IMG/VR virus record: IMGVR_UViG_3300047409_000665
Coordinates: 1-43,459 of that record
DNA length: 43,459 bases
Direction: 5' to 3' (one strand)
From: a virus
The position numbers were made by a program, and so were the translations under genes. Numbering within the stretch: the first letter of the stretch is position 1; the number at the start of each line of letters is the position of its first letter. This document shows positions 1 to 43,459 of the stretch, piece after piece. The notes beneath the pieces were generated by a model. It saw nothing but the letters and a program-made list of their open reading frames with translations. It did no database searches and was not told where the DNA came from.

Positions 1-127
1 TATTATTTATGTTTACTTTGTGAACATGTCCGTACACAAATAATCGCATCATTGTAATATATGAAGACCGAAATCAATTCGCCCTCAGAAGAGGCCGCTC
101 CGATTCGGCAGGATGCCGCGGTGATGG
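1..127. repeat. Terminal direct repeat, left copy; identical to 43333..43459 (circular-assembly overlap or terminal redundancy)
   Basis: Base-by-base reading: tattatttatgtttactttgtgaac...gccgcggtgatgg at 1-127 recurs exactly at 43333-43459, including the start of ORF 61..282. Confidence 0.97.
17..40. promoter_or_regulatory. Candidate operator: imperfect palindrome TTTGTGAAC-N6-GTACACAAA in the divergent switch region
   Basis: The arms at 17-25 and 32-40 match 8/9 as an inverted repeat. The site lies in the 120-nt gap between divergent RHH genes 42883..43272(-) and 61..282(+). Confidence 0.35.
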
Positions 128-11218: not shown

Positions 11219-13417
11219 ATGAAACCCGACATCAAAGACCTCGTCACAGAGTTCCAGGAGCTGATCGACGGCCCTGGCGATGACCTCGCCCGGCGCCAGC
11301 TCAACTACAACACCCGCTATTGCGTCTGGGCCGGCCAATCGCCCGATCTCAAGAAGTGGAAGAAGAATATGCCCGCGGGCCAGGAGGTCGTCCCATGGGA
11401 AGGCGCGACCGATTCCCGCGTGTACCTCGTCGACCAATACATCAATGAGGATGTGGACACTCTTTGCCTGGCGTTCAACCAGGCTCAACCCGAGGCCAAG
11501 CCAGTCGCACTCGATGACATAGGAAAGGCCAAGAGGACCTCGCAATTTCTGCAGTGGCTCTGGAGTTCGCAGATTGAAGACATCGATGCCGAGGCAGAGA
11601 TCCTCGCCAACGGCATGCTCGAGGATGGCATCGCCTACGCCGGGATCGTGTGGGAACGCAAGGTCGAGCTGACCGACCAGGAATTCAGCCTCGAGCAAAT
11701 CACCAATGCGGCCATGGCCGCCCAGTTCCAGCGACAGAAAGGCGACCCGGATCCGAATCTTGACCTGATCATGGCATTGCCGCAGACCCTGATGGATCCG
11801 GAGCGCGACGATGATTCGATTGAGCTGGTAAAAGCCATCTATCGCCAGCAAGCCGAGCTGACAGGTGATTTCTATGAGTCAGAAATTCCAGACCCGACCA
11901 CTGCAGATGTCCGGGCAGGGATCAAGGAATTGCGCGAGACGGGCAAGACCACGATCGCAGTGCCCAGGCTCGTATCCAACAAGCCGGCGGTTACTGCCCT
12001 GCGGGATCGGCTCGATCTGTTTCTGCCTGACGACACCCAACGGCTGCAGGACGCGCGCCGTATTTATCGCCGGGAATTCGTCACGGCGGAGGCCCTCGAC
12101 AATCGGCAGATTTCAATGGGTTATGACGAGAAATGGGTGAAGGAGGTCAAGGAACGGGCCAAGGGCCGATCCACAGCAGCCTGGTATGCCGGCGTCGAAC
12201 AGCGCAATGCAAAGGGCCTTGTCTCTTCGCGCCGTATTCCTGGCGATCCATATCTGGATATCAATGAGCTCTACGAGATCGTCCATTGTTACGAGCGCAA
12301 ATCCAATGAGCGTGGCGTTCCGGGCATTTACTGCACGGTCTTTTGTCCCTCCTGCACGCACGTCAACAGCCAGGAGATTTATGCCTACAGCCAATTGCTG
12401 GGCTACGATCACGGCCAATATCCGTTTGTGGAATTCCCGCGGGAACGGTTGAGCCGGCGTTGCACTGATGCCCGTGGCTACGGCGAATTGGGTGCGAGTT
12501 TCCAGAAGCTGCTCAAGGTCGAGCAGGATTCGCGGTGCGACAGCACCAACATGACCACGATCCCGCCCTTGATGCATCCGATGGGCCGGCCCCCGACCCG
12601 CTGGGGTCCAGGGGTCCGGGTGCCCGAGGCGCGCCGGGACGATTACCACTACGCGGCTGTGCCCCCGCCGCCGAGCACCTCGTTTCAGGTCTCGCAGGAT
12701 ATCCAGCATCGAGCCGACAGGAACTTTGGACGGCCGGTCGCGGACGAGGATCCGGCCTATGCCAGGAACCGGCGAATGCGAATGACTGAGCGTTGGCTGG
12801 GCTGCTGGACAAAGGTTCTCGCGCAGGCCTTCGCCTTGTGCCAGCAATTCCAGCCCGATGTCTTCTGGTTTCGTGTCACTGGCCAGCTCGATGCCGAGCC
12901 GATCCGGGCCAGCCGGGATGATATCCAGGGCAAATTCGATCTCAGCCTGAGTTTCAACATTGCCGGCCTTGAGCCCGACCTCCTCGAGAAACAATTCAAG
13001 ATGCTGATTGAATTCGTCCAGGCTGTGGACATCGGCGGCACCGTGGACCGCGACCAACTGTTGCGCCTTGGCCTCGAGGCGATCAACCCCGCATTCGCGG
13101 AACGCCTCCTGAAGAATCCGCAAGGCGCAGCCCAAGCCGAGATCGACCAGGAACGATTGGTCGTGACCGGCCTGCTCAACGGCATCGACAGCGACGTGAA
13201 GCCCGGGCAAGCCCATCAACTGCGATTGCAGACCTTCGACAACATCATGCAGACCAACAGCCGCGCGATGCAGATCGCGGCGGAGAACCCGCAAGTGGCG
13301 GAGCTACTGAAGAAGCGCCGTCAACAGCTCCAATTCGCTGTGGAGCAGAAGACGACCAACGCCCAGGCGGGGAGGGTCGGCACGTTGCCAAGTCAACAGA
13401 TGGGGGCGGGGGCGTGA
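11219..13417 (+). CDS. Portal protein (candidate)
   Basis: 732-aa ORF, the first large late gene after terL and followed by scaffold and capsid genes. The call rests on position and size. Confidence 0.6.
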   Translation: MKPDIKDLVTEFQELIDGPGDDLARRQLNYNTRYCVWAGQSPDLKKWKKNMPAGQEVVPWEGATDSRVYLVDQYINEDVDTLCLAFNQAQPEAKPVALDDIGKAKRTSQFLQWLWSSQIEDIDAEAEILANGMLEDGIAYAGIVWERKVELTDQEFSLEQITNAAMAAQFQRQKGDPDPNLDLIMALPQTLMDPERDDDSIELVKAIYRQQAELTGDFYESEIPDPTTADVRAGIKELRETGKTTIAVPRLVSNKPAVTALRDRLDLFLPDDTQRLQDARRIYRREFVTAEALDNRQISMGYDEKWVKEVKERAKGRSTAAWYAGVEQRNAKGLVSSRRIPGDPYLDINELYEIVHCYERKSNERGVPGIYCTVFCPSCTHVNSQEIYAYSQLLGYDHGQYPFVEFPRERLSRRCTDARGYGELGASFQKLLKVEQDSRCDSTNMTTIPPLMHPMGRPPTRWGPGVRVPEARRDDYHYAAVPPPPSTSFQVSQDIQHRADRNFGRPVADEDPAYARNRRMRMTERWLGCWTKVLAQAFALCQQFQPDVFWFRVTGQLDAEPIRASRDDIQGKFDLSLSFNIAGLEPDLLEKQFKMLIEFVQAVDIGGTVDRDQLLRLGLEAINPAFAERLLKNPQGAAQAEIDQERLVVTGLLNGIDSDVKPGQAHQLRLQTFDNIMQTNSRAMQIAAENPQVAELLKKRRQQLQFAVEQKTTNAQAGRVGTLPSQQMGAGA

Positions 13418-13744: not shown

Positions 13745-13755
13745 GCTAGGCCAGG

Positions 13756-14241
13756 CTAGGGGATCAATTCAGGTTGGTCGACAACCGGTTGGCTGATTTC
13801 GAGCCCCCCCACCCTGGGGTCCTTGTTTAGTACCAGTATACGACTGTCGAATGTGAATAAAGCTCGAGCCTTATAAATCAGAGCTGTAGCTATGTGAATT
13901 GCATCAGGGGTGGCAAGTTTTCCACTCTCCTGATTTAGCAGCCGGTCGCGAAGCTCGCGAGCTTTCAGCGCGATGGCTATGTCAACGTCGTAGGCGATGT
14001 GGTCGCGTGTGCGAAACGACTTGCGGAACAACCGTTCCTTTTCCTCGTCCATTTTCGAAGCCAGAACTTCGATTAGGGTGATCGTCGAAGAGATGATAGT
14101 AACTTTGCGCTCGAAGTTCTCCTTGAGAACCTGGGCGATGGCGTCCATCGGTGCCTTGCCGTGAGATTGTTCATCTCTCAACCAGGCAATGTAGACACAA
14201 GAATCCCAATAAATAACTTTGGTCTGGTCAGTCCCACTCAT
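13756..14241 (-). CDS. PIN-domain (VapC-like) ribonuclease
   Basis: N-terminal VIYWDSCVYIAWL (Asp), TPDAIHIATALIY and LFTFDSRI acidic motifs typical of PIN. Confidence 0.75.
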   Translation of the reverse strand: MSGTDQTKVIYWDSCVYIAWLRDEQSHGKAPMDAIAQVLKENFERKVTIISSTITLIEVLASKMDEEKERLFRKSFRTRDHIAYDVDIAIALKARELRDRLLNQESGKLATPDAIHIATALIYKARALFTFDSRILVLNKDPRVGGLEISQPVVDQPELIP

Positions 14242-15049
14242 CCCGGATAGCTCTCACGAATTCGACGGATGACATTTGCGGCAATGCTCCAGCAGCAATC
14301 CCTCTCAAATCCTTCAAATGGACTTCGGTTTTGTCCGAGAGAATCTCGAAATCTCGGACTGCCACCCGGTAAGGATAGGGACTTTGTGGCCGGAAATATT
14401 TGAATCCTTCCACCCGGACGTATTGTCCCAGAGCGTCGCGAAGCTGATCCGCGGTGCCTGGGAGAAAATCACATCGGATCTTTGGGGGAGCTACACGCGG
14501 ATAGATCCAGAATCTGCGCGCGTGACCGTGAATGTTGACGCTGTCCAGGCTTCCTTCGACGGTTCCGTATGATGAATCTGCTTCGTTGAGCAACCGTTGA
14601 ATGTTTATTACGAAATCCTGATCGAGCCGCACCCCGGTGTCTCCGTTGGAGATAATCACCGTCTTGAATGAGCTTTCCGGGCCGGCTGTAAGATCCCGCA
14701 AATGCTCCAATATGGGTTCGTCCAGATCCGGGGAAACCGGTTCATTGCGACTAATCGCTTTGAGTTCCTGGAAGAATCTGTGGTGCCTGACGGCGATGTG
14801 GTCGCGGTTCGGCTTCGGAAAGCTGGGGCGGACCATCGGCTCCAGGGTCACTCTTACGGGGCTACTTTTGCTTATTTCAACAATCCGATAATAAAGCGTT
14901 GGTTTTCCCGTTCCTCCGACCAACCGATCGAAGCCGTTGAGCGTGGTGATGAGGTGGCTCAGCTCTTCACAGAATTGATCAGCTCGAACTTGCCCCTGCT
15001 CAGATTCGCCACCTTCCACTATGAGTGTAATGCGGTTTTCTGAATTCAT
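14228..15049 (-). CDS. 273-aa unknown protein, operon partner of the PIN gene (candidate atypical antitoxin or sensor)
   Basis: Its stop overlaps the PIN start by 14 nt; GAGG lies 5 nt before the ATG. The C-terminal tail is SSVEFVRAIRDEWD. No family recognised. Confidence 0.6.
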   Translation of the reverse strand: MNSENRITLIVEGGESEQGQVRADQFCEELSHLITTLNGFDRLVGGTGKPTLYYRIVEISKSSPVRVTLEPMVRPSFPKPNRDHIAVRHHRFFQELKAISRNEPVSPDLDEPILEHLRDLTAGPESSFKTVIISNGDTGVRLDQDFVINIQRLLNEADSSYGTVEGSLDSVNIHGHARRFWIYPRVAPPKIRCDFLPGTADQLRDALGQYVRVEGFKYFRPQSPYPYRVAVRDFEILSDKTEVHLKDLRGIAAGALPQMSSVEFVRAIRDEWD

Positions 15050-15070
15050 CGGCCCCTCACTTTATCCGTG

Positions 15071-15087
15071 TTACCAACCCTTGGTAA
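15071..15087. promoter_or_regulatory. Perfect palindrome TTACCAA-ccc-TTGGTAA upstream of the 273-aa/PIN operon (candidate autoregulatory operator)
   Basis: The site is 22 nt upstream of start codon 15049. On the minus strand it overlaps a possible TTACCA-N17-TAAAGT promoter. Confidence 0.35.
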
Positions 15088-15115
15088 TTTCTTTCGGGCA
15101 GAATCGTGCTCCTCG

Positions 15116-15688
15116 TCATGGGAACAGGCTTCGCACCGCAACTTGGATTGAAGGTATTGATTGACATTTAATGGTCTCCATCAACCCGAAGTTTTTCTGA
15201 GCCGTGTACCTGCCGTCCGCGGGCAATCGGTAGACCTCGACGTGTTTCGTTGCCGTATCAACGATCCAATATTCCAAGACACCGGCCTCCGCGTAGATTT
15301 CGGCCTTCGCACGATCGAGGGCGAGGCTGGTGACAGCGACTTCGATGACCAGGAGGGCGGTTGTGGGGTGTTGTTGACGAAATTCAATTTCATTGGCTCC
15401 CACGACGGCGATATCCGGTTCGGGTTCCGAATCGATGAAGGTCAGGGGCTCATCTTTCCAGACTGAGAATCCCTCAAGGGGGATGGATCGGAGAATGAGT
15501 GTGTGGAGAAAGGTAGAGATCCAACTGTGAAGAGGTGATTTTGACATCTTTTCAATGACGATTCCCCGCACCAGTTCAGTGCGTCGGCCGCGATGGTTGC
15601 GTTCCGGAAACTGGTGATATTCCTCGACGGATACAGGCGAGAGACGCTCGCGAACCTCGGGGATCTGCAAGAGTTGTGTGGCGCTCAT
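15116..15688 (-). CDS. Uma2 (DUF820) family endonuclease
   Basis: SVEEYHQF...TELVRGIVIEKMSKSPLHS...EPEPDIAVV...LVIEVAVTSLALDRAKAEIYAEAGVLEYWIVD...VEVYRLP. An alternative GTG start is at 15742. Confidence 0.75.
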   Translation of the reverse strand: MSATQLLQIPEVRERLSPVSVEEYHQFPERNHRGRRTELVRGIVIEKMSKSPLHSWISTFLHTLILRSIPLEGFSVWKDEPLTFIDSEPEPDIAVVGANEIEFRQQHPTTALLVIEVAVTSLALDRAKAEIYAEAGVLEYWIVDTATKHVEVYRLPADGRYTAQKNFGLMETIKCQSIPSIQVAVRSLFP

Positions 15689-15767
15689 TTGTATTACCGG
15701 GCATTTCGGGCCGCCTCGGGCCCTCAGGGTATCGGAATTCACAAGTTAACTCATCAAAATCGGCCCT

Positions 15768-15797
15768 AATCTGCCTCAATCTGCCTCAATCTGCCCT
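15768..15797. repeat. Tandem 10-mers AATCTGCCTC x2 plus AATCTGCCCT
   Basis: Copies at 15768-77, 15778-87 and 15788-97, in the divergent gap between the Uma2 gene and the scaffold gene. Confidence 0.85.
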
Positions 15798-15921
15798 GAA
15801 GTGCGACAGATAAAGTTTGTTTTACCTCCCCGAAGCCGTGAGAGCCTTGCGCTTGACACCGGCCTCACGTCCTTGGGCCGCCGCAGATTAAGCACCTGCG
15901 GGAACCAAGGACGGCTTTCAA

Positions 15922-17173: not shown

Positions 17174-18157
17174 ATGCCAGCAGCAAATACGTATCAGAGT
17201 CCGAGTTGGCCCGGAGGCAACCGAGAGGATCTCATGGATGTCCTCACGATTGTCGAGCCGGAGACTTACCCGGTCACATCCACCATCACTAAAGGCCCGG
17301 CCCCAAACGCCGTTTTCAGTGAATGGCTCGTGGACAACCTCAGACCCGCCCGGATTGGCGGAGTGCCAGAAGGCCAGGATGTCCAAATGTTCAATAACAA
17401 GGCGACCAACCGGAAACGAATCGGCAATTATGTGCAGATATTCCGGGATGAATACGCCGTGACCGATCTCCAGGAATTGGTTGAGGTCGCCGCGGTTGAT
17501 GACGAGTTTTCCTACGCCAAATACAAGAGCGCGCGGGAACTCAAACGCGATATCGAGCTGACAGTCTGTTCGGGTCAGGACCGGCAAGTGGGCGCTGCAG
17601 ATGTGCCCTACCTGACGCGGGGTCTTTTCAATTGGATCAGCGCGACCGGTCCGGCTGATGTTCCTGCTGAGGTTCGCAGCCCAGCCGGCGCGATCCTCAC
17701 GACCGGCTCGGCCACGACGGAGCAACAGCTCAATGCGGCCTTGCAGGCGCTCTTCGAAGTCCAGGGCGGCCCGAAGGAATATCTCGGCGCGTTCGGCACG
17801 AACCTGATTGCGCAGGTGGACAATTTCACCCGGCTCTCAGGCGCAGCGGATTCCAGCCGGAATCGTTACACGGTCACTGAGGACGCCTCAACCCACACCA
17901 TCACCCTTCACGTCAAACGATTCGAGAGCACCTTTGGCGACATTAATTTTGTCCCGGATGTGTTCCTGAACCCGACGCCGGGCACGATCAGCCAGAATGC
18001 GGGACTGATTCTAAATACGGAACTGCTCGAGCTGGCGTATCTCGACAAGCTCCACTCCATGGAGCTGCCGGACCAGGGCGGCGGGCCTCGTGGTTACACC
18101 AAGGGCGTCATGCAACTGCGCGTATTGAATCCGCGTGGCCTGGGAAAGATCACCTAA
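17174..18157 (+). CDS. Major capsid protein (HK97 fold, SU10/DUF5309-like)
   Basis: 327 aa. REDLMDVLTIVEPETYPVTS...FSEWLVDNL...EGQDV...NRKRIGNYVQIF...KSARELKRDIELT... resembles the DUF5309 capsid family. Confidence 0.8.
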   Translation: MPAANTYQSPSWPGGNREDLMDVLTIVEPETYPVTSTITKGPAPNAVFSEWLVDNLRPARIGGVPEGQDVQMFNNKATNRKRIGNYVQIFRDEYAVTDLQELVEVAAVDDEFSYAKYKSARELKRDIELTVCSGQDRQVGAADVPYLTRGLFNWISATGPADVPAEVRSPAGAILTTGSATTEQQLNAALQALFEVQGGPKEYLGAFGTNLIAQVDNFTRLSGAADSSRNRYTVTEDASTHTITLHVKRFESTFGDINFVPDVFLNPTPGTISQNAGLILNTELLELAYLDKLHSMELPDQGGGPRGYTKGVMQLRVLNPRGLGKIT

Positions 18158-38993: not shown

Positions 38994-39007
38994 GATACAG
39001 AACCCGA

Positions 39008-39433
39008 TTAGGTCGTGGCTGGTGGGGATTGAGGTTCCTTGACAACTTTTGGCGTTTCTCGACGTAGTTTGCTATTGAAAAGGTACACTCCCACCAAACT
39101 GCCCAAACTCAGAAGAAATGCAGATAGGCCTACAATTGGTTTACTCATTCCAACTAAGGTTAAGCCTCCGATCATACCCACCGCACCCAGTCCGAAAGCA
39201 AAGTATTGCCCTCGTTGCATCATCTTAAGACGCGCCTCGAGCTCCTTTTTCTGCATGTCGTGGCGGTGACTCTGTTCTTTTTCTGCCATCGCAACGATTC
39301 GCTCCGCGCATCCCGGCAAGGCACGCTCGTAGCCCGCAAGCAATTCAGGTGGTGGGATCGGGGCGGAATATTCGCTGTGCTGGTACGTCAGCGTTACCTG
39401 CTGTCCGACCCGTGGCTTCTGCTGTTCGCTCAC
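39008..39433 (-). CDS. DUF2335-family membrane protein
   Basis: SAPIPPPELLAGYERALPGCAERIVAMAEKEQSHRHDMQ followed by two TM segments; GTG start in a GTGA overlap. Confidence 0.75.
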   Translation of the reverse strand: MSEQQKPRVGQQVTLTYQHSEYSAPIPPPELLAGYERALPGCAERIVAMAEKEQSHRHDMQKKELEARLKMMQRGQYFAFGLGAVGMIGGLTLVGMSKPIVGLSAFLLSLGSLVGVYLFNSKLRRETPKVVKEPQSPPATT

Positions 39434-39645
39434 GCAGCGAACCCCGGAAGGAAAGGCTCAGAGGATTCGAGAATAATATGAACCGGTTGGTTGCTCATCG
39501 CATGAGCGATATACCCGCCGACCCGCTCGAAGTCGCCAGCAATCGCTTGGGCGTCATCCATCTCAAGGGTTTGTCCTGACGGATAATCACCAGCCAGGTT
39601 AAGTACCGAAGCGGCTCCCCAAACGAACGCGTGCCATGGTGACAT
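39430..39645 (-). CDS. Small hypothetical protein upstream of DUF2335
   Basis: MSPWHAFVWGAASVLNLAGDY...DDAQAIAGDFERVGGYIAHAM; internal ATG of ORF 39430..39696. Confidence 0.5.
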   Translation of the reverse strand: MSPWHAFVWGAASVLNLAGDYPSGQTLEMDDAQAIAGDFERVGGYIAHAMSNQPVHIILESSEPFLPGFAA

Positions 39646-39807
39646 CTCCCGAATCACAATGAAAATTGAGCAATCCCGGCTCGCGGAGTCAAGCAACTCG
39701 TTCGTTAGCTGCCGTTTACAAAATAAATATCACACGCGACCCGCGTTGACGTTCACGCCGAGATTCTTGGCGGAATTCCGATTGGCGAAGGACCCTGGCG
39801 GACATAA

Positions 39808-39921
39808 GCGATCCGCGCTGCAACGATCAAAGGCGGCACCGATGGGGCTGCGAAGGAAATCGAGAAGCGGTTACTGGTGGCTCCGACCCGAAGCCAGCGG
39901 ATTCCTGTGCGGGTGAAGTGA
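39808..39921 (+). pseudogene. Relic 3' end of a diverged homologue of the 1169-aa gene
   Basis: It translates AIRAATIKGGTDGAAKEIEKRLLVA..., compared with AIRAATIRGGTDGAAEEMGRRLLVG at 38907-38980. Many differences are synonymous third positions, and an in-frame TAA sits immediately upstream. Confidence 0.7.
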
Positions 39922-39956
39922 CTAATTTCTTTGATCGGTCGGGAGGAGTTTTTTGT

Positions 39957-40640
39957 TTAAAGCAAGGAGAGCGCAGATTTTTGCTCTGACTTTGGATGAT
40001 CGGCTTCTTTGTCTTCAAGTTCAGCAGCCATTCGATCCAATTCCTTGACTGCTTGCACAAGCACCGCGGGATCATCTTGATTTTCGAGCTCGCGTTTAGC
40101 CTGGAGTTCCATTTCGACGTCTGTGAATTTTAGCGCAACCCCTCCTAAGTTGCCGAAGTTAGGCCAGAATGTGATTGCCCGGCCGCCTTGAAGCGAGACT
40201 TGGCAGAGTCCCATCGATGTATAGACCTCTTGCGGTTGGATACCGAACCTATCGCGTATTTCTTTCTCCATCCGTCGCTTCATGAGTTCGTCCCGGACTG
40301 CCGGATTGTTTCCCTGAACAACGAGGCTCACAACCCGATGAGTCAGAGGTGTGACTCGGACCTCGAACGAGGTGAATAGTTCTGAACTTGGGTTGGGCTT
40401 GAATTTGTAGATGATGCTTCCATCCATAGAGCGGGTCACATCCGTTGCTGTGCGAATATCAAAGAATTCTCCGAGCGTTAGCCCAAACATTCCTTGAATT
40501 TTTTCTGCTTGAACTTTTTGTTCTTTAGTCTTCGGGAATTTCAGCGAGGAGACTCTCTCCAGGTCAATTCCCCAGGACTGTTCCAGGCAGGCACTAATCA
40601 TGAGTGCCCAGCACGTTGCGTGAAGGATTCTTGGTATCAT
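39957..40640 (-). CDS. Lipoprotein, hypothetical (lysogenic-conversion candidate)
   Basis: MIPRILHATCWALMISAC signal plus lipobox; start taken at the internal ATG 40640. Confidence 0.55.
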   Translation of the reverse strand: MIPRILHATCWALMISACLEQSWGIDLERVSSLKFPKTKEQKVQAEKIQGMFGLTLGEFFDIRTATDVTRSMDGSIIYKFKPNPSSELFTSFEVRVTPLTHRVVSLVVQGNNPAVRDELMKRRMEKEIRDRFGIQPQEVYTSMGLCQVSLQGGRAITFWPNFGNLGGVALKFTDVEMELQAKRELENQDDPAVLVQAVKELDRMAAELEDKEADHPKSEQKSALSLL

Positions 40641-40740
40641 TTTGTGTCCAAATCGTCTGGTGCGGACGATCGTCGCCGTCCGTATATTCAGTGCAAATGT
40701 CAAATCGCCGCCGTTGCCTTTGGCATTTGGCACCGAGATG

Positions 40741-40763
40741 TAAGTAGCAAATCTAGTAGCAAA
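40741..40763. repeat. Arm-type repeat pair (TAAGTAGCAAA / CTAGTAGCAAA), left of the att core
   Basis: Copies at 40741-51 and 40753-63 with 12-nt period, in the same orientation as the pair at 40997-41019. Confidence 0.6.
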
Positions 40764-40824
40764 GAACACTTCTTCATTCGTAAGTTGTTCACCGTCAGCG
40801 TTTGAGTGACTTTTCCTCCTTTGC

Positions 40825-40863
40825 TCCGTAGTCAGATGCTCTATCCAATTGAGCTACGGATGC
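40825..40863 (-). other. attP core candidate: 5' half (positions 1-38) of a tRNA-Arg(ACG) gene, not a complete tRNA
   Basis: The minus strand reads GCATCCGTAGCTCAATTGGATAGAGCATCTGACTACGGA: acceptor 5' strand, D-arm, anticodon stem 5' strand and loop CUACGGA. No matching 3' stem, T-arm or acceptor 3' strand follows. Confidence 0.65.
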
Positions 40864-40875
40864 CCACAGCCTGAT

Positions 40876-42291
40876 TTACAATGAGTTACACGTGTATGTC
40901 ATTGTATTTGAATCACATGTCGCTTTCACGTCGCTAATATATTGCACGAAATTGCCTCCGCTTGCAATGCTATTTGAAGGTATTTCTACCGGCGAGCTAG
41001 TAGCAAAGCTAGTAGCAAATCCAGCGAGATCGCCCCGTGGCTTCTGCAGGGTCTTGGGAGTCGGAACGGCCGCCATCGGAGCGTCGGTTACTCGCATTGT
41101 CACGTAGCGGCCGTAGTAACGCTGGGTTGTCGCCATGTCGCCGTGTCTGAGCCAGAGGCTTCCTTGTAACATGCCATCCCGCGAGATGACCTGGCATCCA
41201 GCGTAGGCTCGGAGTTCATGAATTCCTTTTTGTGTTTTCCAGCCTAAATTTCGGAGCCATTCGTTGACTTCTCGGAATACGCCGTCGAGGCGCCAAGTCA
41301 TCGTGCCCCCGATCACATATGCTCCAGGTGCCATGGCGTCGATCAGCGGTCCGAGGCGGGTCCAGGCATCATTTGCCACAGGAATCCGTGGGATAAGTTG
41401 CCCATTCTTTGTCGCCTCGCTCTCCCCGTATCCCATTCGGCCGCTCACGGCTCGCAGCTCGAGCTCAATGCGGCCCGCGACGGGTACGAACCAGTCCGCC
41501 CGCACCGCGCTGATTTCCGACTTCCTGAGACCGAATCCCAGGGCTAGCCAACAAACCAAATAGCGATCAGGCTGATCTTCCCTGCTGGATTCCAGTTCAG
41601 CGAATGTCTTGGCAATAAGCCAATCCGGCGGCGGTTGGTAATCCTTGTTGCGCCCCTTGCCAAACCCAGGGGTATTCCGGAACCCGTCCATCGAGGGAAG
41701 GACCAGGCCGGCGCGTCGCGAATAATAATGCAACAACTCTCTTGTGAAGATCATGCGAGCCTGCCTGAGCGTCGAGATTCCTCCATTTCTCGCTCGGCTC
41801 AACGCTGCCATTCCCTTGCCAAGGGCTGTCTTCTCTTTGATCTCGCCATAGCGAATGACCAGGTCTTCATTGAGTTCTGATAAATCGCGATCTTTCCAGA
41901 CGGGCATGGTTCCCAAGCTCACTTCGATCACTCGCTTCAGAGCGCAAATATACCCATACCGAGTGGCCGGCTTCGCTTGCCCAGGTGCCCCCTGGAAGAT
42001 GGTCACCACCTGCCCCACAGTGACTGCGGCAACGGTAGACTTGGTTTGTTCGGACGGCGGACGCAGCGAGTCGAGTGCTGCTGAGACTCGGCCCTCGAGC
42101 CCGGCCTGCAAGATCCGCTTGGCAATCTCCACCGCCGAATCCCTCGCACTGGTTCCGAGGGATTTCGGGATTTGTTTTCCATTAAGACTGATCCGGATTT
42201 CCCAGGACGCGTGCGGGCTTCCACGCTGGAATATCTTGCGCGGCAGTCCTCGAAACTTGAATTCGTGGGTGACGTAGTATCGCTCAGGCAT
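40876..42291 (-). CDS. int: Tyrosine recombinase / phage integrase
   Basis: LALGFGLRKSEISAVRADW (Arg box), HELRAYAG..., LWLRHGDMATTQRYYGRY (His and Tyr nucleophile region). Confidence 0.85.
   Translation of the reverse strand: MPERYYVTHEFKFRGLPRKIFQRGSPHASWEIRISLNGKQIPKSLGTSARDSAVEIAKRILQAGLEGRVSAALDSLRPPSEQTKSTVAAVTVGQVVTIFQGAPGQAKPATRYGYICALKRVIEVSLGTMPVWKDRDLSELNEDLVIRYGEIKEKTALGKGMAALSRARNGGISTLRQARMIFTRELLHYYSRRAGLVLPSMDGFRNTPGFGKGRNKDYQPPPDWLIAKTFAELESSREDQPDRYLVCWLALGFGLRKSEISAVRADWFVPVAGRIELELRAVSGRMGYGESEATKNGQLIPRIPVANDAWTRLGPLIDAMAPGAYVIGGTMTWRLDGVFREVNEWLRNLGWKTQKGIHELRAYAGCQVISRDGMLQGSLWLRHGDMATTQRYYGRYVTMRVTDAPMAAVPTPKTLQKPRGDLAGFATSFATSSPVEIPSNSIASGGNFVQYISDVKATCDSNTMTYTCNSL
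40997..41019. repeat. Arm-type repeat pair CTAGTAGCAAA x2, right of the att core (inside the int 3' end)
   Basis: Copies at 40997-41007 and 41009-41019 with 12-nt period; they encode FATSFATS in Int. Confidence 0.6.
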
Positions 42292-43332: not shown

Positions 43333-43459
43333 TATTATTTATGTTTACTTTGTGAACATGTCCGTACACAAATAATCGCATCATTGTAATATATGAAGAC
43401 CGAAATCAATTCGCCCTCAGAAGAGGCCGCTCCGATTCGGCAGGATGCCGCGGTGATGG
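43333..43459. repeat. Terminal direct repeat, right copy (duplicate of 1..127)
   Basis: Exact 127-nt identity with 1..127. Confidence 0.97.

What the first reader, a model, noticed from the sequence alone, without database searches (positions are those of the whole stretch)
13756..15742. Antisense three-gene island (Uma2 nuclease + 273-aa unknown + PIN RNase) inside the morphogenesis operon
Three co-oriented minus-strand genes sit between the portal-proximal gene (ends 13744) and the scaffold gene (starts 15922), antisense to the whole late operon. By eye they are more AT-rich than their neighbours, which is moron-like.

The PIN gene is translationally linked to a 273-aa upstream partner by a 14-nt overlap. 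That partner is several times larger than VapB-type antitoxins, and I cannot place it in any family. It has two similar beta-rich segments (about residues 1-75 and 160-245) and a short C-terminal tail, SSVEFVRAIRDEWD, that looks like a toxin-neutralising tail. A Uma2/DUF820 nuclease lies directly upstream.

This could be an uncharacterised prophage-expressed TA, abortive-infection or superinfection-exclusion module.
Basis: partly seen in the sequence, partly recalled or inferred. Interest (0 to 1): 0.7.

Follow-up and report, generated by a model that had tools for sequence, protein, structure and literature searches.

The report
PIN toxin with OB-fold partner cassette
A temperate phage carries, in a variable cargo slot between its portal and scaffold genes, a mobile two-gene cassette (a VapC-like PIN RNase plus a widespread, unannotated 273-aa OB-fold partner) that looks like a new kind of toxin-antitoxin pair, while the neighbouring Uma2 nuclease gene is unrelated cargo.

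Summary
The three minus-strand genes exist as described: PIN 13756-14241, the 273-aa gene 14228-15049 and Uma2 15116-15685/15742. They are AT-richer than the genome, and the 14-nt overlap is real. They are not one island.

In about 45 loci from at least six bacterial phyla and three phage lineages, the 273-aa homologue is always followed by a cognate PIN, usually with an 11-14-nt overlap. Uma2 is never nearby. One sister phage has Uma2 alone at this junction, another has the pair without Uma2, and a third has neither.

The 273-aa protein belongs to a large family (2,028 clusters at 50% identity) with no Pfam, NCBIfam, PHROG or PADLOC model. Its model shows an α/β N-domain with no PDB neighbour, an OB-fold, a disordered linker and a C-terminal helix (F-V-R-x-I/L-R-D/N-E-W) under protein-level selection. 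The four PIN catalytic acidic residues are invariant.

Close bacterial relatives carry a third, small RHH-like gene upstream, which the phage copies lack. In a cultured Pseudomonas phage the pair follows the CI repressor.

Best reading: a non-canonical VapC-type toxin-antitoxin or abortive-infection cassette, which is a new variant of a known kind. Toxicity, neutralisation and defence are untested.

The parts
13756..14241 (-). VapC-like PIN-domain nuclease gene (161 aa), the putative toxin or effector
   Evidence: Pfam PIN 5.8e-11, 43.5 bits against a cutoff of 23.6. D13, E58, D113 and D132 are 100% invariant in 19 partner PINs. Orthologues in RefSeq are named 'type II toxin-antitoxin system VapC family toxin'. 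This copy lacks a 9-12-aa segment after D132 that 16 of 19 homologues have.
14228..15049 (-). 273-aa partner gene, a member of a large unannotated family. Putative antitoxin or sensor of the PIN.
   Evidence: 56 close homologues. 2,028 representative clusters at E<=1e-3. No Pfam, NCBIfam, PHROG, PADLOC or PDB sequence match. AF2 model has pLDDT 82.6 and pTM 0.74.
14579..15049 (-). N-terminal α/β domain of the partner (residues 1-157)
   Evidence: AF2 model has pLDDT 88 and pTM 0.86. Best PDB Foldseek hit has E=4.8e-3 and TM about 0.3. Only weak ferredoxin-like resemblances appear. A sub-threshold DUF7946 hit covers residues 29-77 (E=0.066).
14339..14578 (-). OB-fold domain of the partner (residues 158-237)
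   Evidence: The strand order is β1-β2-β3-α-β4-β5. Foldseek hits include the Asp/Lys/Asn-tRNA synthetase anticodon-binding domain, SSB, Stn1, HIN and OBody (probability 1.0, E about 1e-3, TMt up to 0.63). N172, H174, C193, F195, G162, G166 and G215 are near-invariant.
14231..14269 (-). Conserved C-terminal amphipathic helix of the partner (residues 261-273, SVEFVRAIRDEWD), the putative PIN-docking and neutralising element. It follows a disordered linker (residues about 238-260).
   Evidence: F264, R266, R269, E271 and W272 are invariant. Synonymous codon variation at F, V, R and R shows protein-level selection. Low pLDDT (47-63) suggests it is not packed on its own domains.
14228..14241 (-). 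14-nt overlap between the partner's last codons and the PIN start (ATGAGTGGGACTGA), indicating translational coupling
   Evidence: Read directly. An 11- or 14-nt overlap is conserved in 18 of 19 loci down to about 25% identity and in Pseudomonas phage AV001.
15071..15087 (-). Perfect palindrome TTACCAAgggTTGGTAA, 22-38 nt upstream of the 273-aa start codon. A possible operator, but speculative.
   Evidence: It is not conserved in other loci. No sigma-70 consensus promoter was found in the region.
15116..15685 (-). Uma2/DUF820 PD-(D/E)xK-type putative nuclease gene (189 aa from the likely ATG; the longest ORF runs to 15742). Independent cargo, not part of the PIN module.
   Evidence: Pfam Uma2 3.4e-30, full length. 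PADLOC candidate PDC-S03 1.9e-20. A 60%-identical orthologue stands alone at the same junction in L008. Absent from all other module loci.
13745..15921 (.). Variable cargo hot spot of this phage lineage, between the small portal-proximal gene and the scaffold-like gene
   Evidence: The backbone is homologous in L007, L008 and L043, but the content differs: two other ORFs in L007, Uma2 only in L008, and the pair plus other ORFs without Uma2 in L043. Phage C75C1 has no insert.

Best explanation
The core feature is a mobile two-gene cassette, not a three-gene island. A VapC-family PIN ribonuclease (the toxin or effector) is co-translated with a 273-aa partner encoded just upstream.

The partner is built from four parts: an N-terminal α/β domain with no PDB structural neighbour, a nucleic-acid-binding-type OB-fold, a flexible linker, and a short conserved amphipathic C-terminal helix carrying two invariant arginines.

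The proposed mechanism has three inferred steps:
1. The C-terminal helix docks on the PIN and occludes its acidic active site, as VapB/FitA tails do.
2. The folded OB and N-terminal domains either bind nucleic acid or act as the sensor that decides when the PIN is released.
3. Once freed, the PIN cleaves RNA and arrests the cell. VapC-family enzymes typically cleave tRNA or rRNA.

In close bacterial relatives the operon begins with a third small RHH-like gene. It probably acts as a separate transcriptional regulator, giving an omega-epsilon-zeta-like division of labour. Both phage-borne copies have lost this gene.

In this temperate phage the cassette sits antisense in a cargo hot spot. It most likely serves the lysogen by excluding or aborting superinfecting phage, or it stabilises the prophage. 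The adjacent Uma2 gene is a separate piece of cargo.

Shown here: the gene pair, its coupling, its synteny, the intact active site, the folds, selection on the tail, mobility and the independence of Uma2.
Inferred: inhibition by the tail, the RNA target, sensing, and the defence role.
For: - Synteny: a cognate PIN lies immediately downstream in every informative locus. That is 23 loci from genomes, MAGs and phages plus 22 of 22 metagenome loci. The overlap is 11-14 nt in 18 of 19 measured loci.
- PIN active site: D13, E58, D113 and D132 are invariant.
- Tail: the motif [ED]-F-V-R-x-[IL]-R-[DN]-E-W is conserved, with synonymous codon turnover at F, V, R and R. It persists in L036, where the PIN start lies elsewhere. 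The tail and linker have low pLDDT, so they are not packed on their own domains.
- Minimal partner: natural short partners with only the OB domain and tail still pair with an intact PIN (L035, L038).
- Third gene: a small upstream gene with a 4-nt stop/start overlap occurs in 9 independent bacterial loci and about 10 metagenome loci.
- Distribution typical of TA modules: patchy across Verrucomicrobiota, Saccharimonadales, Alpha- and Gammaproteobacteria, Chloroflexota and Spirochaetes. The cassette lies next to IS1/rve transposases and integrases.
- Phage contexts: the pair occupies this hot spot in two related phages. In cultured Pseudomonas phage vB_PaeS_AV001 it lies directly downstream of the CI-type (Peptidase_S24) repressor.
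- Composition: the island is AT-rich, consistent with acquisition by horizontal transfer.
- Established knowledge: FitA/VapB C-terminal segments bind the VapC groove with an Arg reaching the acidic pocket (Mattison 2006, cited in PMC10440598). PIN toxins pair with many unrelated antitoxin folds (PMC10440598).
Against: - No experiment and no complex model.
- The partner is about three times the size of a VapB. Its OB domain has near-invariant N-x-H and C-x-F motifs, which suggest an activity or ligand beyond simple inhibition.
- Bacterial neighbourhoods are mostly housekeeping genes and are not enriched for defence genes: 2 methyltransferases among 111 ORFs.
- No PADLOC model hits any member.
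- No promoter consensus was found for the cassette, and expression in the lysogen is unknown.
- The window's PIN has a 9-12-aa deletion after D132, and the cassette lacks the small regulator gene, so this particular copy might be impaired.
- The PIN scores far below the NCBIfam VapC equivalog cutoff (20 against 80 bits).
- Part of the locus sampling used patterns that include the tail motif. That could favour loci with the overlap. The exact-protein look-ups were not biased in this way.
Confidence: 0.6

Rival explanations
1. The pair is a two-subunit ribonuclease rather than a toxin-antitoxin pair. The OB-fold partner would be a substrate-recruiting or specificity subunit, for example binding a tRNA anticodon loop or ssRNA. 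It would activate or target the PIN instead of inhibiting it. The C-terminal helix would then be only the assembly interface.
For: - The OB-fold's best structural matches are nucleic-acid-binding OB domains, including class IIb aaRS anticodon-binding domains and SSBs.
- The OB core has many near-invariant residues, including aromatic ones.
- The partner is large and well folded.
- Strict 1:1 coupling fits a holoenzyme as well as a TA pair.
- PIN plus OB/S1 combinations occur in cellular RNases such as Dis3/Rrp44 (my own knowledge).
Against: - The patchy, mobile-element-linked distribution and the prophage cargo positions suit a selfish or defence module better than a housekeeping RNase.
- The gene order, with the partner first and overlapping the PIN, plus an upstream RHH-like regulator, is the classical TA layout.
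- Foldseek scores do not separate aaRS-type OB domains from generic ones.
Confidence: 0.2
2. The cassette is inert or decaying cargo in this particular phage. It has lost its small regulator gene and carries a deletion in the PIN, so it has no function here even if the family is functional elsewhere.
For: - The small upstream gene is present in bacterial relatives but absent here.
- A 9-12-aa segment is missing after D132.
- No promoter consensus was found.
- Remnants of the module exist elsewhere, for example L037 and the truncated small gene in L046.
Against: - Both ORFs are intact, and all catalytic residues, the tail and the overlap are preserved.
- The sister phage L043 also keeps an intact pair without the small gene, at 66-71% identity. 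That implies long-term maintenance under selection in phages.
- L036 also lacks the PIN insert yet is otherwise intact.
- The distant clade never has the small gene.
Confidence: 0.1
3. One reading: Uma2, the 273-aa protein and the PIN work together as one three-gene defence or TA island.
For: The three genes are co-oriented, adjacent and all AT-richer than the genome. Uma2 matches a PADLOC single-gene defence candidate, PDC-S03.
Against: - None of about 45 other module loci has a Uma2 homologue within about 5-6 kb.
- L008 has Uma2 alone at the same junction. L043 has the pair without Uma2. L007 has neither.
- A 66-bp gap separates Uma2 from the pair, with no coupling.
Confidence: 0.03

Closest known systems
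VapBC type II toxin-antitoxin systems (for example FitAB of Neisseria, VapBC of Shigella and Mycobacterium)
   Same: - A single-domain PIN nuclease of about 160-180 aa with the four conserved acidic residues.
- It is encoded downstream of, and overlapping, its partner gene.
- The partner ends in a short conserved Arg-containing segment after a flexible region.
- The distribution is mobile and patchy.
- RefSeq already names the PIN orthologues VapC family toxins.
   Different: - The partner is 273 aa with an α/β domain plus an OB-fold. It lacks the AbrB, RHH, PHD or HTH DNA-binding domain that defines VapB.
- The PIN scores below the NCBIfam VapC equivalog cutoff.
- In close relatives the DNA-binding role seems to be delegated to a separate small gene.
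- Toxicity and neutralisation are untested.
Omega-epsilon-zeta (and PaaR-PaaA-ParE) tripartite TA operons
   Same: In bacterial relatives the operon order is small RHH-like protein, then partner, then toxin, with all junctions overlapping. This suggests a regulator separate from the antitoxin.
   Different: - The toxin is a PIN RNase, not a zeta kinase or ParE.
- The RHH assignment of the small protein comes from its sequence pattern only. Pfam and PDB give no match.
- The window and the other phage copies lack this gene altogether.
Lambda rexAB-type lysogen-expressed exclusion genes and prophage defence hot spots (P2/P4-like)
   Same: - In Pseudomonas phage vB_PaeS_AV001 the pair lies directly downstream of, and co-oriented with, the CI-type repressor.
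- In the window's lineage the pair occupies a variable cargo slot whose content differs between sister phages.
   Different: There is no sequence or fold relation to RexAB. Neither expression from the repressor operon nor any exclusion phenotype has been shown.
NetFlax-type non-canonical TA pairs (PIN toxins with PanA, SpnP, RHH_6 and other antitoxins; PMC10440598)
   Same: The principle is the same: PIN toxins swap partners with unrelated folds, and such pairs are often phage-defence related.
   Different: None of the antitoxin domains listed there is an OB-fold two-domain protein. No paper in the searchable library describes an OB-fold partner of VapC.
Uma2/DUF820 family (PF05685; PADLOC candidate PDC-S03)
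   Same: The third gene is a full-length member.
   Different: It is not linked to the PIN pair anywhere else. It is a separate cargo gene.

Membership tests
VapBC type II TA | The toxin is a PIN domain with four conserved acidic active-site residues. | tested here: met
   Pfam PIN 5.8e-11. D13, E58, D113 and D132 are invariant in 19 homologues.
VapBC type II TA | The partner gene lies immediately upstream in the same operon, often overlapping. | tested here: met
   14-nt overlap, conserved in 18 of 19 loci. A PIN follows in all informative loci.
VapBC type II TA | The antitoxin is a small protein with an N-terminal AbrB, RHH, PHD or HTH DNA-binding domain. | tested here: not met
   The partner is 273 aa. 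Neither it nor 70 relatives match any such Pfam domain. Its folds are an α/β domain plus an OB barrel.
VapBC type II TA | The protein scores above the NCBIfam VapC equivalog cutoff (NF047959). | tested here: not met
   20.3 bits against a cutoff of 80.
VapBC type II TA | The toxin arrests growth and the cognate partner neutralises it by direct binding. | not testable with these tools
   This needs expression assays or a complex structure.
OB-fold nucleic-acid-binding domains | A five-stranded β-barrel with a helix between β3 and β4. | tested here: met
   DSSP order is E158-172, E179-183, E191-194, H200-205, E210-219, E227-237. Foldseek probability is 1.0 to aaRS IIb N-domains, SSB, Stn1 and OBody.
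OB-fold nucleic-acid-binding domains | The domain binds ssDNA, RNA or oligosaccharide. | not testable with these tools
   This needs EMSA or a structure. Conserved aromatic and polar residues give only a hint.
Omega-epsilon-zeta-like tripartite TA | A separate RHH regulator gene lies upstream of the antitoxin and toxin. | tested here: inconclusive
   A small upstream gene is present in 9 bacterial and about 10 metagenome loci, but not in the window. Pfam and PDB do not confirm the RHH fold. Wider homologue searches timed out.
Known or candidate anti-phage defence systems (PADLOC-DB v2) | The protein matches a defence-system protein model. | tested here: not met
   No hit for the 273-aa protein or the PIN of the window, nor for five divergent pairs. 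Only Uma2 hits candidate PDC-S03.
DUF7946 (PF25678) and DUF6575 | The protein scores above the Pfam gathering threshold. | tested here: not met
   DUF7946 scores 13.7 bits against a cutoff of 27, and 1 of 70 relatives hits it at E=0.008. DUF6575 appears only as the annotation of a BFVD structural hit, with no sequence match.
Uma2/DUF820 (third gene) | Full-length match to PF05685 above threshold. | tested here: met
   105 bits against a cutoff of 27, covering profile positions 1-171 of 172.
   Uma2 is absent from all other loci. The genes assort independently in L007, L008 and L043.

The most novel reading that the evidence does not exclude
The OB-fold partner is a sensor-antitoxin, meaning it both holds the PIN inactive and detects infection. 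It holds the PIN inactive through its C-terminal helix. It releases the PIN when its OB or N-terminal domain binds an infection-specific ligand, such as phage ssDNA or RNA, a phage SSB-like protein, or a specific tRNA. This would define a new, widespread abortive-infection family of more than 2,000 sequence clusters. Temperate phages would carry it in cargo hot spots and beside their repressors to exclude rival phages. Bacterial versions would add a dedicated small regulator.
Probability: 0.22. Interest if true: 0.75.

Novelty: new variant of a known kind. Interest (0 to 1): 0.55.

Why it matters
VapC/PIN toxins are the most abundant TA toxins, yet many are annotated as orphans because their partners are unrecognised. 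Here the partner is a well-defined, large family of about 270 aa that is unannotated in every protein-family library searched here (Pfam, NCBIfam, PHROGs, PADLOC). It has a nucleic-acid-binding-type fold, strict pairing with the PIN, and a conserved docking tail.

Recognising the family would re-annotate thousands of 'hypothetical protein + VapC' pairs. It would add an OB-fold class to the antitoxin repertoire and give a candidate phage-borne exclusion module. The module is experimentally tractable because one copy sits next to the repressor of a cultured Pseudomonas aeruginosa phage.

The work also documents a cargo hot spot inside the head-morphogenesis gene cluster of a Verrucomicrobiota-associated phage lineage.

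Tried and rejected
- **Three-gene island with Uma2:** rejected on synteny.
- **Internal duplication in the 273-aa protein:** rejected. hhalign probability is at most 4%.
- **Membership in a curated family:** none in Pfam, NCBIfam, PHROGs or PADLOC, even for 70 divergent relatives. PDB sequence and profile searches were empty.
- **N-domain fold:** it was modelled separately with high confidence, but Foldseek found no significant PDB neighbour.
- **Defence-island enrichment:** not seen around 12 bacterial loci.
- **Conserved operator:** the window's palindrome is not shared by other loci. The promoter and terminator scan showed nothing above chance.
- **RHH confirmation for the small upstream protein:** Pfam and PDB were negative, and two large homology searches timed out.
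- **DUF6575 lead from BFVD:** the domain is listed among new defence domains in PMC9519451, but I could not tie it to a named system or to this family by sequence.
- **Mobile-element collections:** PLSDB plasmids gave no homologue. IMG/VR gave only the sister phage.
- **Literature:** no description of an OB-fold VapC partner, nor of phage vB_PaeS_AV001.
Full report
**What is in the sequence**

The window is a complete, circularly closed contig with a 127-bp exact terminal overlap. It is a temperate tailed phage. It has an integrase at 40876-42291 (phrog_1), a DnaB helicase, a DNA methyltransferase, a 732-aa portal-like protein at 11219-13417 and an SU10-type major capsid protein at 17174-18157.

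| Gene | Coordinates | Size | Family match |
|---|---|---|---|
| PIN | 13756-14241 | 161 aa | Pfam PIN 5.8e-11 |
| Partner | 14228-15049 | 273 aa | none |
| Uma2 | 15116-15742 | 208 aa (longest ORF) | Pfam Uma2 3.4e-30 |

- The 14-nt overlap reads cgg gAT GAG TGG GAC TGA.
- The island has GC 0.527 against 0.578 for the genome, in the lowest 3.4% of 2-kb windows.
- Uma2 probably starts at the internal ATG near 15685, giving 189 aa like its orthologue in a sister phage.
hhalign probability is 4%.

**The island is composite**

Three relatives of this phage share the backbone: portal 78-87% and capsid 86-93% amino-acid identity. They differ at this junction:

| Phage | Content at the junction |
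|---|---|
| Window | 273-aa gene + PIN + Uma2 |
| L043/L051 | 273-aa gene (71% identity) + PIN (66%) + other ORFs, no Uma2 |
| L008 | Uma2 only (60% identity), directly beside the small portal-proximal gene |
| L007 | Two unrelated minus-strand ORFs |

The more distant phage C75C1 has no insert at all. So this is a cargo hot spot, and Uma2 and the PIN pair are independent passengers.

**The conserved unit is the pair**

The 273-aa protein has 56 close homologues of 270-277 aa. A profile search finds 2,028 representative clusters at 50% identity (326 at E<=1e-30), nearly all about 270 aa and matched end to end.

I examined loci from three sources: exact-protein look-ups, a scan of one genome per species and a metagenome scan.
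- Every locus with downstream DNA has a PIN gene immediately after the homologue, and the window's own PIN or a profile of partner PINs recognises it. That is 23 loci in the first two sets and 22 of 22 in the third.
- The single exception, L037, is a truncated remnant.
- The overlap is 11 or 14 nt in 18 of 19 measured loci, down to about 25% identity.
- No locus other than the window has a Uma2 homologue within about 5-6 kb.
- Hosts span Verrucomicrobiota (the closest, and probably this phage's host group), Saccharimonadales, Alpha- and Gammaproteobacteria (including isolates Thermomonas fusca DSM 15424 and Dyella sp.), Chloroflexota and Spirochaetes.
- RefSeq calls the PIN 'type II toxin-antitoxin system VapC family toxin' and the partner 'hypothetical protein'.

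**The proteins**

The PIN keeps D13, E58, D113 and D132 in all 19 aligned homologues. The window copy lacks a 9-12-aa segment after D132 that most homologues have.

The partner has no match in Pfam, NCBIfam, PHROGs, PADLOC or PDB sequences, even for 70 divergent relatives. Its AlphaFold model is confident (pLDDT 82.6, pTM 0.74) and shows four parts:
- **N-terminal α/β domain (residues 1-157).** Remodelled alone at pLDDT 88. It has no significant PDB neighbour; the best hit has E=4.8e-3 and TM about 0.3.
- **Canonical OB-fold (residues 158-237).** It matches class IIb aminoacyl-tRNA-synthetase anticodon-binding domains, SSBs, Stn1 and HIN domains.
- **Disordered linker** (residues about 238-260).
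- **C-terminal helix** (residues 261-272).

The tail motif [ED]-F-V-R-x-[IL]-R-[DN]-E-W is invariant at F, R, R, E and W.
- The F, V and both R codons vary synonymously between loci, so selection acts on the protein.
- Only the D/N-E-W codons, which also encode the PIN's M-S-G, are nearly fixed.
- L036, where the PIN starts elsewhere, keeps the motif.
- Natural short partners made only of the OB domain and tail still accompany an intact PIN (L035, L038).

**A third gene in bacterial relatives**

The DNA upstream of the partner in close bacterial loci is coding. It specifies a 65-75-aa protein with a GG-x-R-x-GAGRP basic arm, a K-I-x-V-S-V strand and two helices. Its stop codon overlaps the partner's start by 4 nt (ATGA or GTGA).
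- It is present in 9 independent genomic loci and about 10 metagenome loci.
- It is truncated where an rve-type IS has inserted (L046).
- It is absent from the window, from L043-45 and from the distant clade.
- Its pattern looks ribbon-helix-helix, but Pfam and PDB give nothing, and wider searches timed out. That assignment is my inference.

**Context and mobility**

In bacteria the cassette sits in unrelated, mostly housekeeping neighbourhoods. It is often next to IS1-like or rve transposases or integrases, and it is not in obvious defence islands. It is absent from 72,556 plasmids.

One cultured phage carries it. In Pseudomonas phage vB_PaeS_AV001 the order is CI-type repressor (Peptidase_S24), then the partner homologue, then the PIN, all co-oriented with an 11-nt overlap. 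The PIN there is misannotated as 'repressor protein'. Lambda's rexAB occupies the same position relative to cI (my own knowledge).

**Interpretation**

The best-supported reading (confidence 0.6) is a non-canonical VapC-type toxin-antitoxin cassette. The partner's C-terminal helix would neutralise the PIN. Its folded domains would bind nucleic acid or sense a trigger. In the ancestral bacterial form, a separate small protein would regulate transcription. In phages it is lysogen-benefiting cargo, serving exclusion, abortive infection or prophage stabilisation.

Inhibition, the RNA target, sensing and the defence role are all inferred. The complex could not be modelled here.

Three rivals remain:
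- A non-inhibitory OB subunit that targets the RNase (0.2).
- A decaying copy in this phage (0.1).

**Comparison with known systems, and novelty**

The pair works like VapBC but fails the defining 'small DNA-binding antitoxin' feature and the NCBIfam VapC cutoff. It resembles omega-epsilon-zeta only in operon logic.

The PIN superfamily classification (PMC5499597) describes no such partner. Neither do the NetFlax survey of non-canonical TA pairs (PMC10440598) or full-text searches.

I rate it a new variant of a known kind, with interest 0.55. It is not a surprise in principle, because PIN toxins are known to swap partners. It is, however, a large, cleanly defined, unannotated partner family with a distinctive fold, and it has a tractable phage model.

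Noticed in passing
window 1-127 and 43333-43459: An exact 127-bp terminal overlap. The contig is a circularly closed, complete phage genome of about 43.3 kb, not a prophage with host flanks.
   Followed up: yes
window 15768-15797: The decamer AATCTGCCTC is repeated three times in tandem, between the Uma2 start and the scaffold gene. Degenerate copies occur at the same place in sister phages L007 and L008. It may be a regulatory site for the scaffold/capsid operon or for the divergent Uma2 gene.
   Followed up: partly
window 13820-13850 (PIN residues about 132-140): The window's PIN lacks a 9-12-aa segment (consensus DGxKxKKxLGL) right after the fourth catalytic Asp. 16 of 19 homologues have it, including the sister phage copy. 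The effect on activity is unknown.
   Followed up: partly
L001, L002, L004, L005, L027-L029, L046, L048 (just upstream of the partner gene, for example L004 5777-6004): An uncalled or mis-called small gene of 65-75 aa with a GGxRxGAGRP arm and an RHH-like pattern. It overlaps the partner's start by 4 nt, which makes the bacterial module tripartite. Public gene calls often place a minus-strand ORF or nothing there.
   Followed up: partly
L050 (Pseudomonas phage vB_PaeS_AV001, PQ349086.1 35161-36520): The module sits directly downstream of the CI-type repressor. Its PIN gene (vBPaeSAV001_055) is annotated 'repressor protein', which looks like a misannotation.
   Followed up: yes
L035 179-1145 and 2471-3437; L038 829-1843: Thiomargarita and Parabeggiatoa carry a short partner of about 165 aa (OB domain plus tail only) with an intact PIN. 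The pair is duplicated in L035.
   Followed up: partly
L037 5947-6411: A remnant of the partner (OB domain plus tail only), preceded by a HicB-like ORF, with no PIN downstream. This is a degraded copy.
   Followed up: partly
L004 4902-5732, L027 4899-5729, L029 4903-5733, L048 841-1545: The same IS1-like 276-aa ORF lies divergently upstream of the module in several Verrucomicrobiota loci, and rve transposases do so in L001 and L046. The cassette may travel with, or attract, IS elements.
   Followed up: no
L008 2480-3760: A repeat-rich stretch of about 1.3 kb with overlapping ORFs on both strands. It lies between the portal gene and the small portal-proximal gene of a sister phage and is additional cargo of unknown nature.
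   Followed up: no
L007 10425-11134: The same hot spot in another sister phage holds two different minus-strand ORFs: a 152-aa protein and a 113-aa coiled-coil or TM-like protein with a weak CCDC90-like hit.
   Followed up: partly
window 39000-41000: The lowest-GC stretch of the genome (about 0.48-0.51), next to the integrase and lysogeny region. It contains ORFs with no family match (for example 39957-40769, minus strand) and may be another cargo region.
   Followed up: no
window 15071-15087: The perfect palindrome TTACCAAgggTTGGTAA lies just upstream of the 273-aa gene's ribosome-binding site. It is not conserved in other loci.
   Followed up: partly
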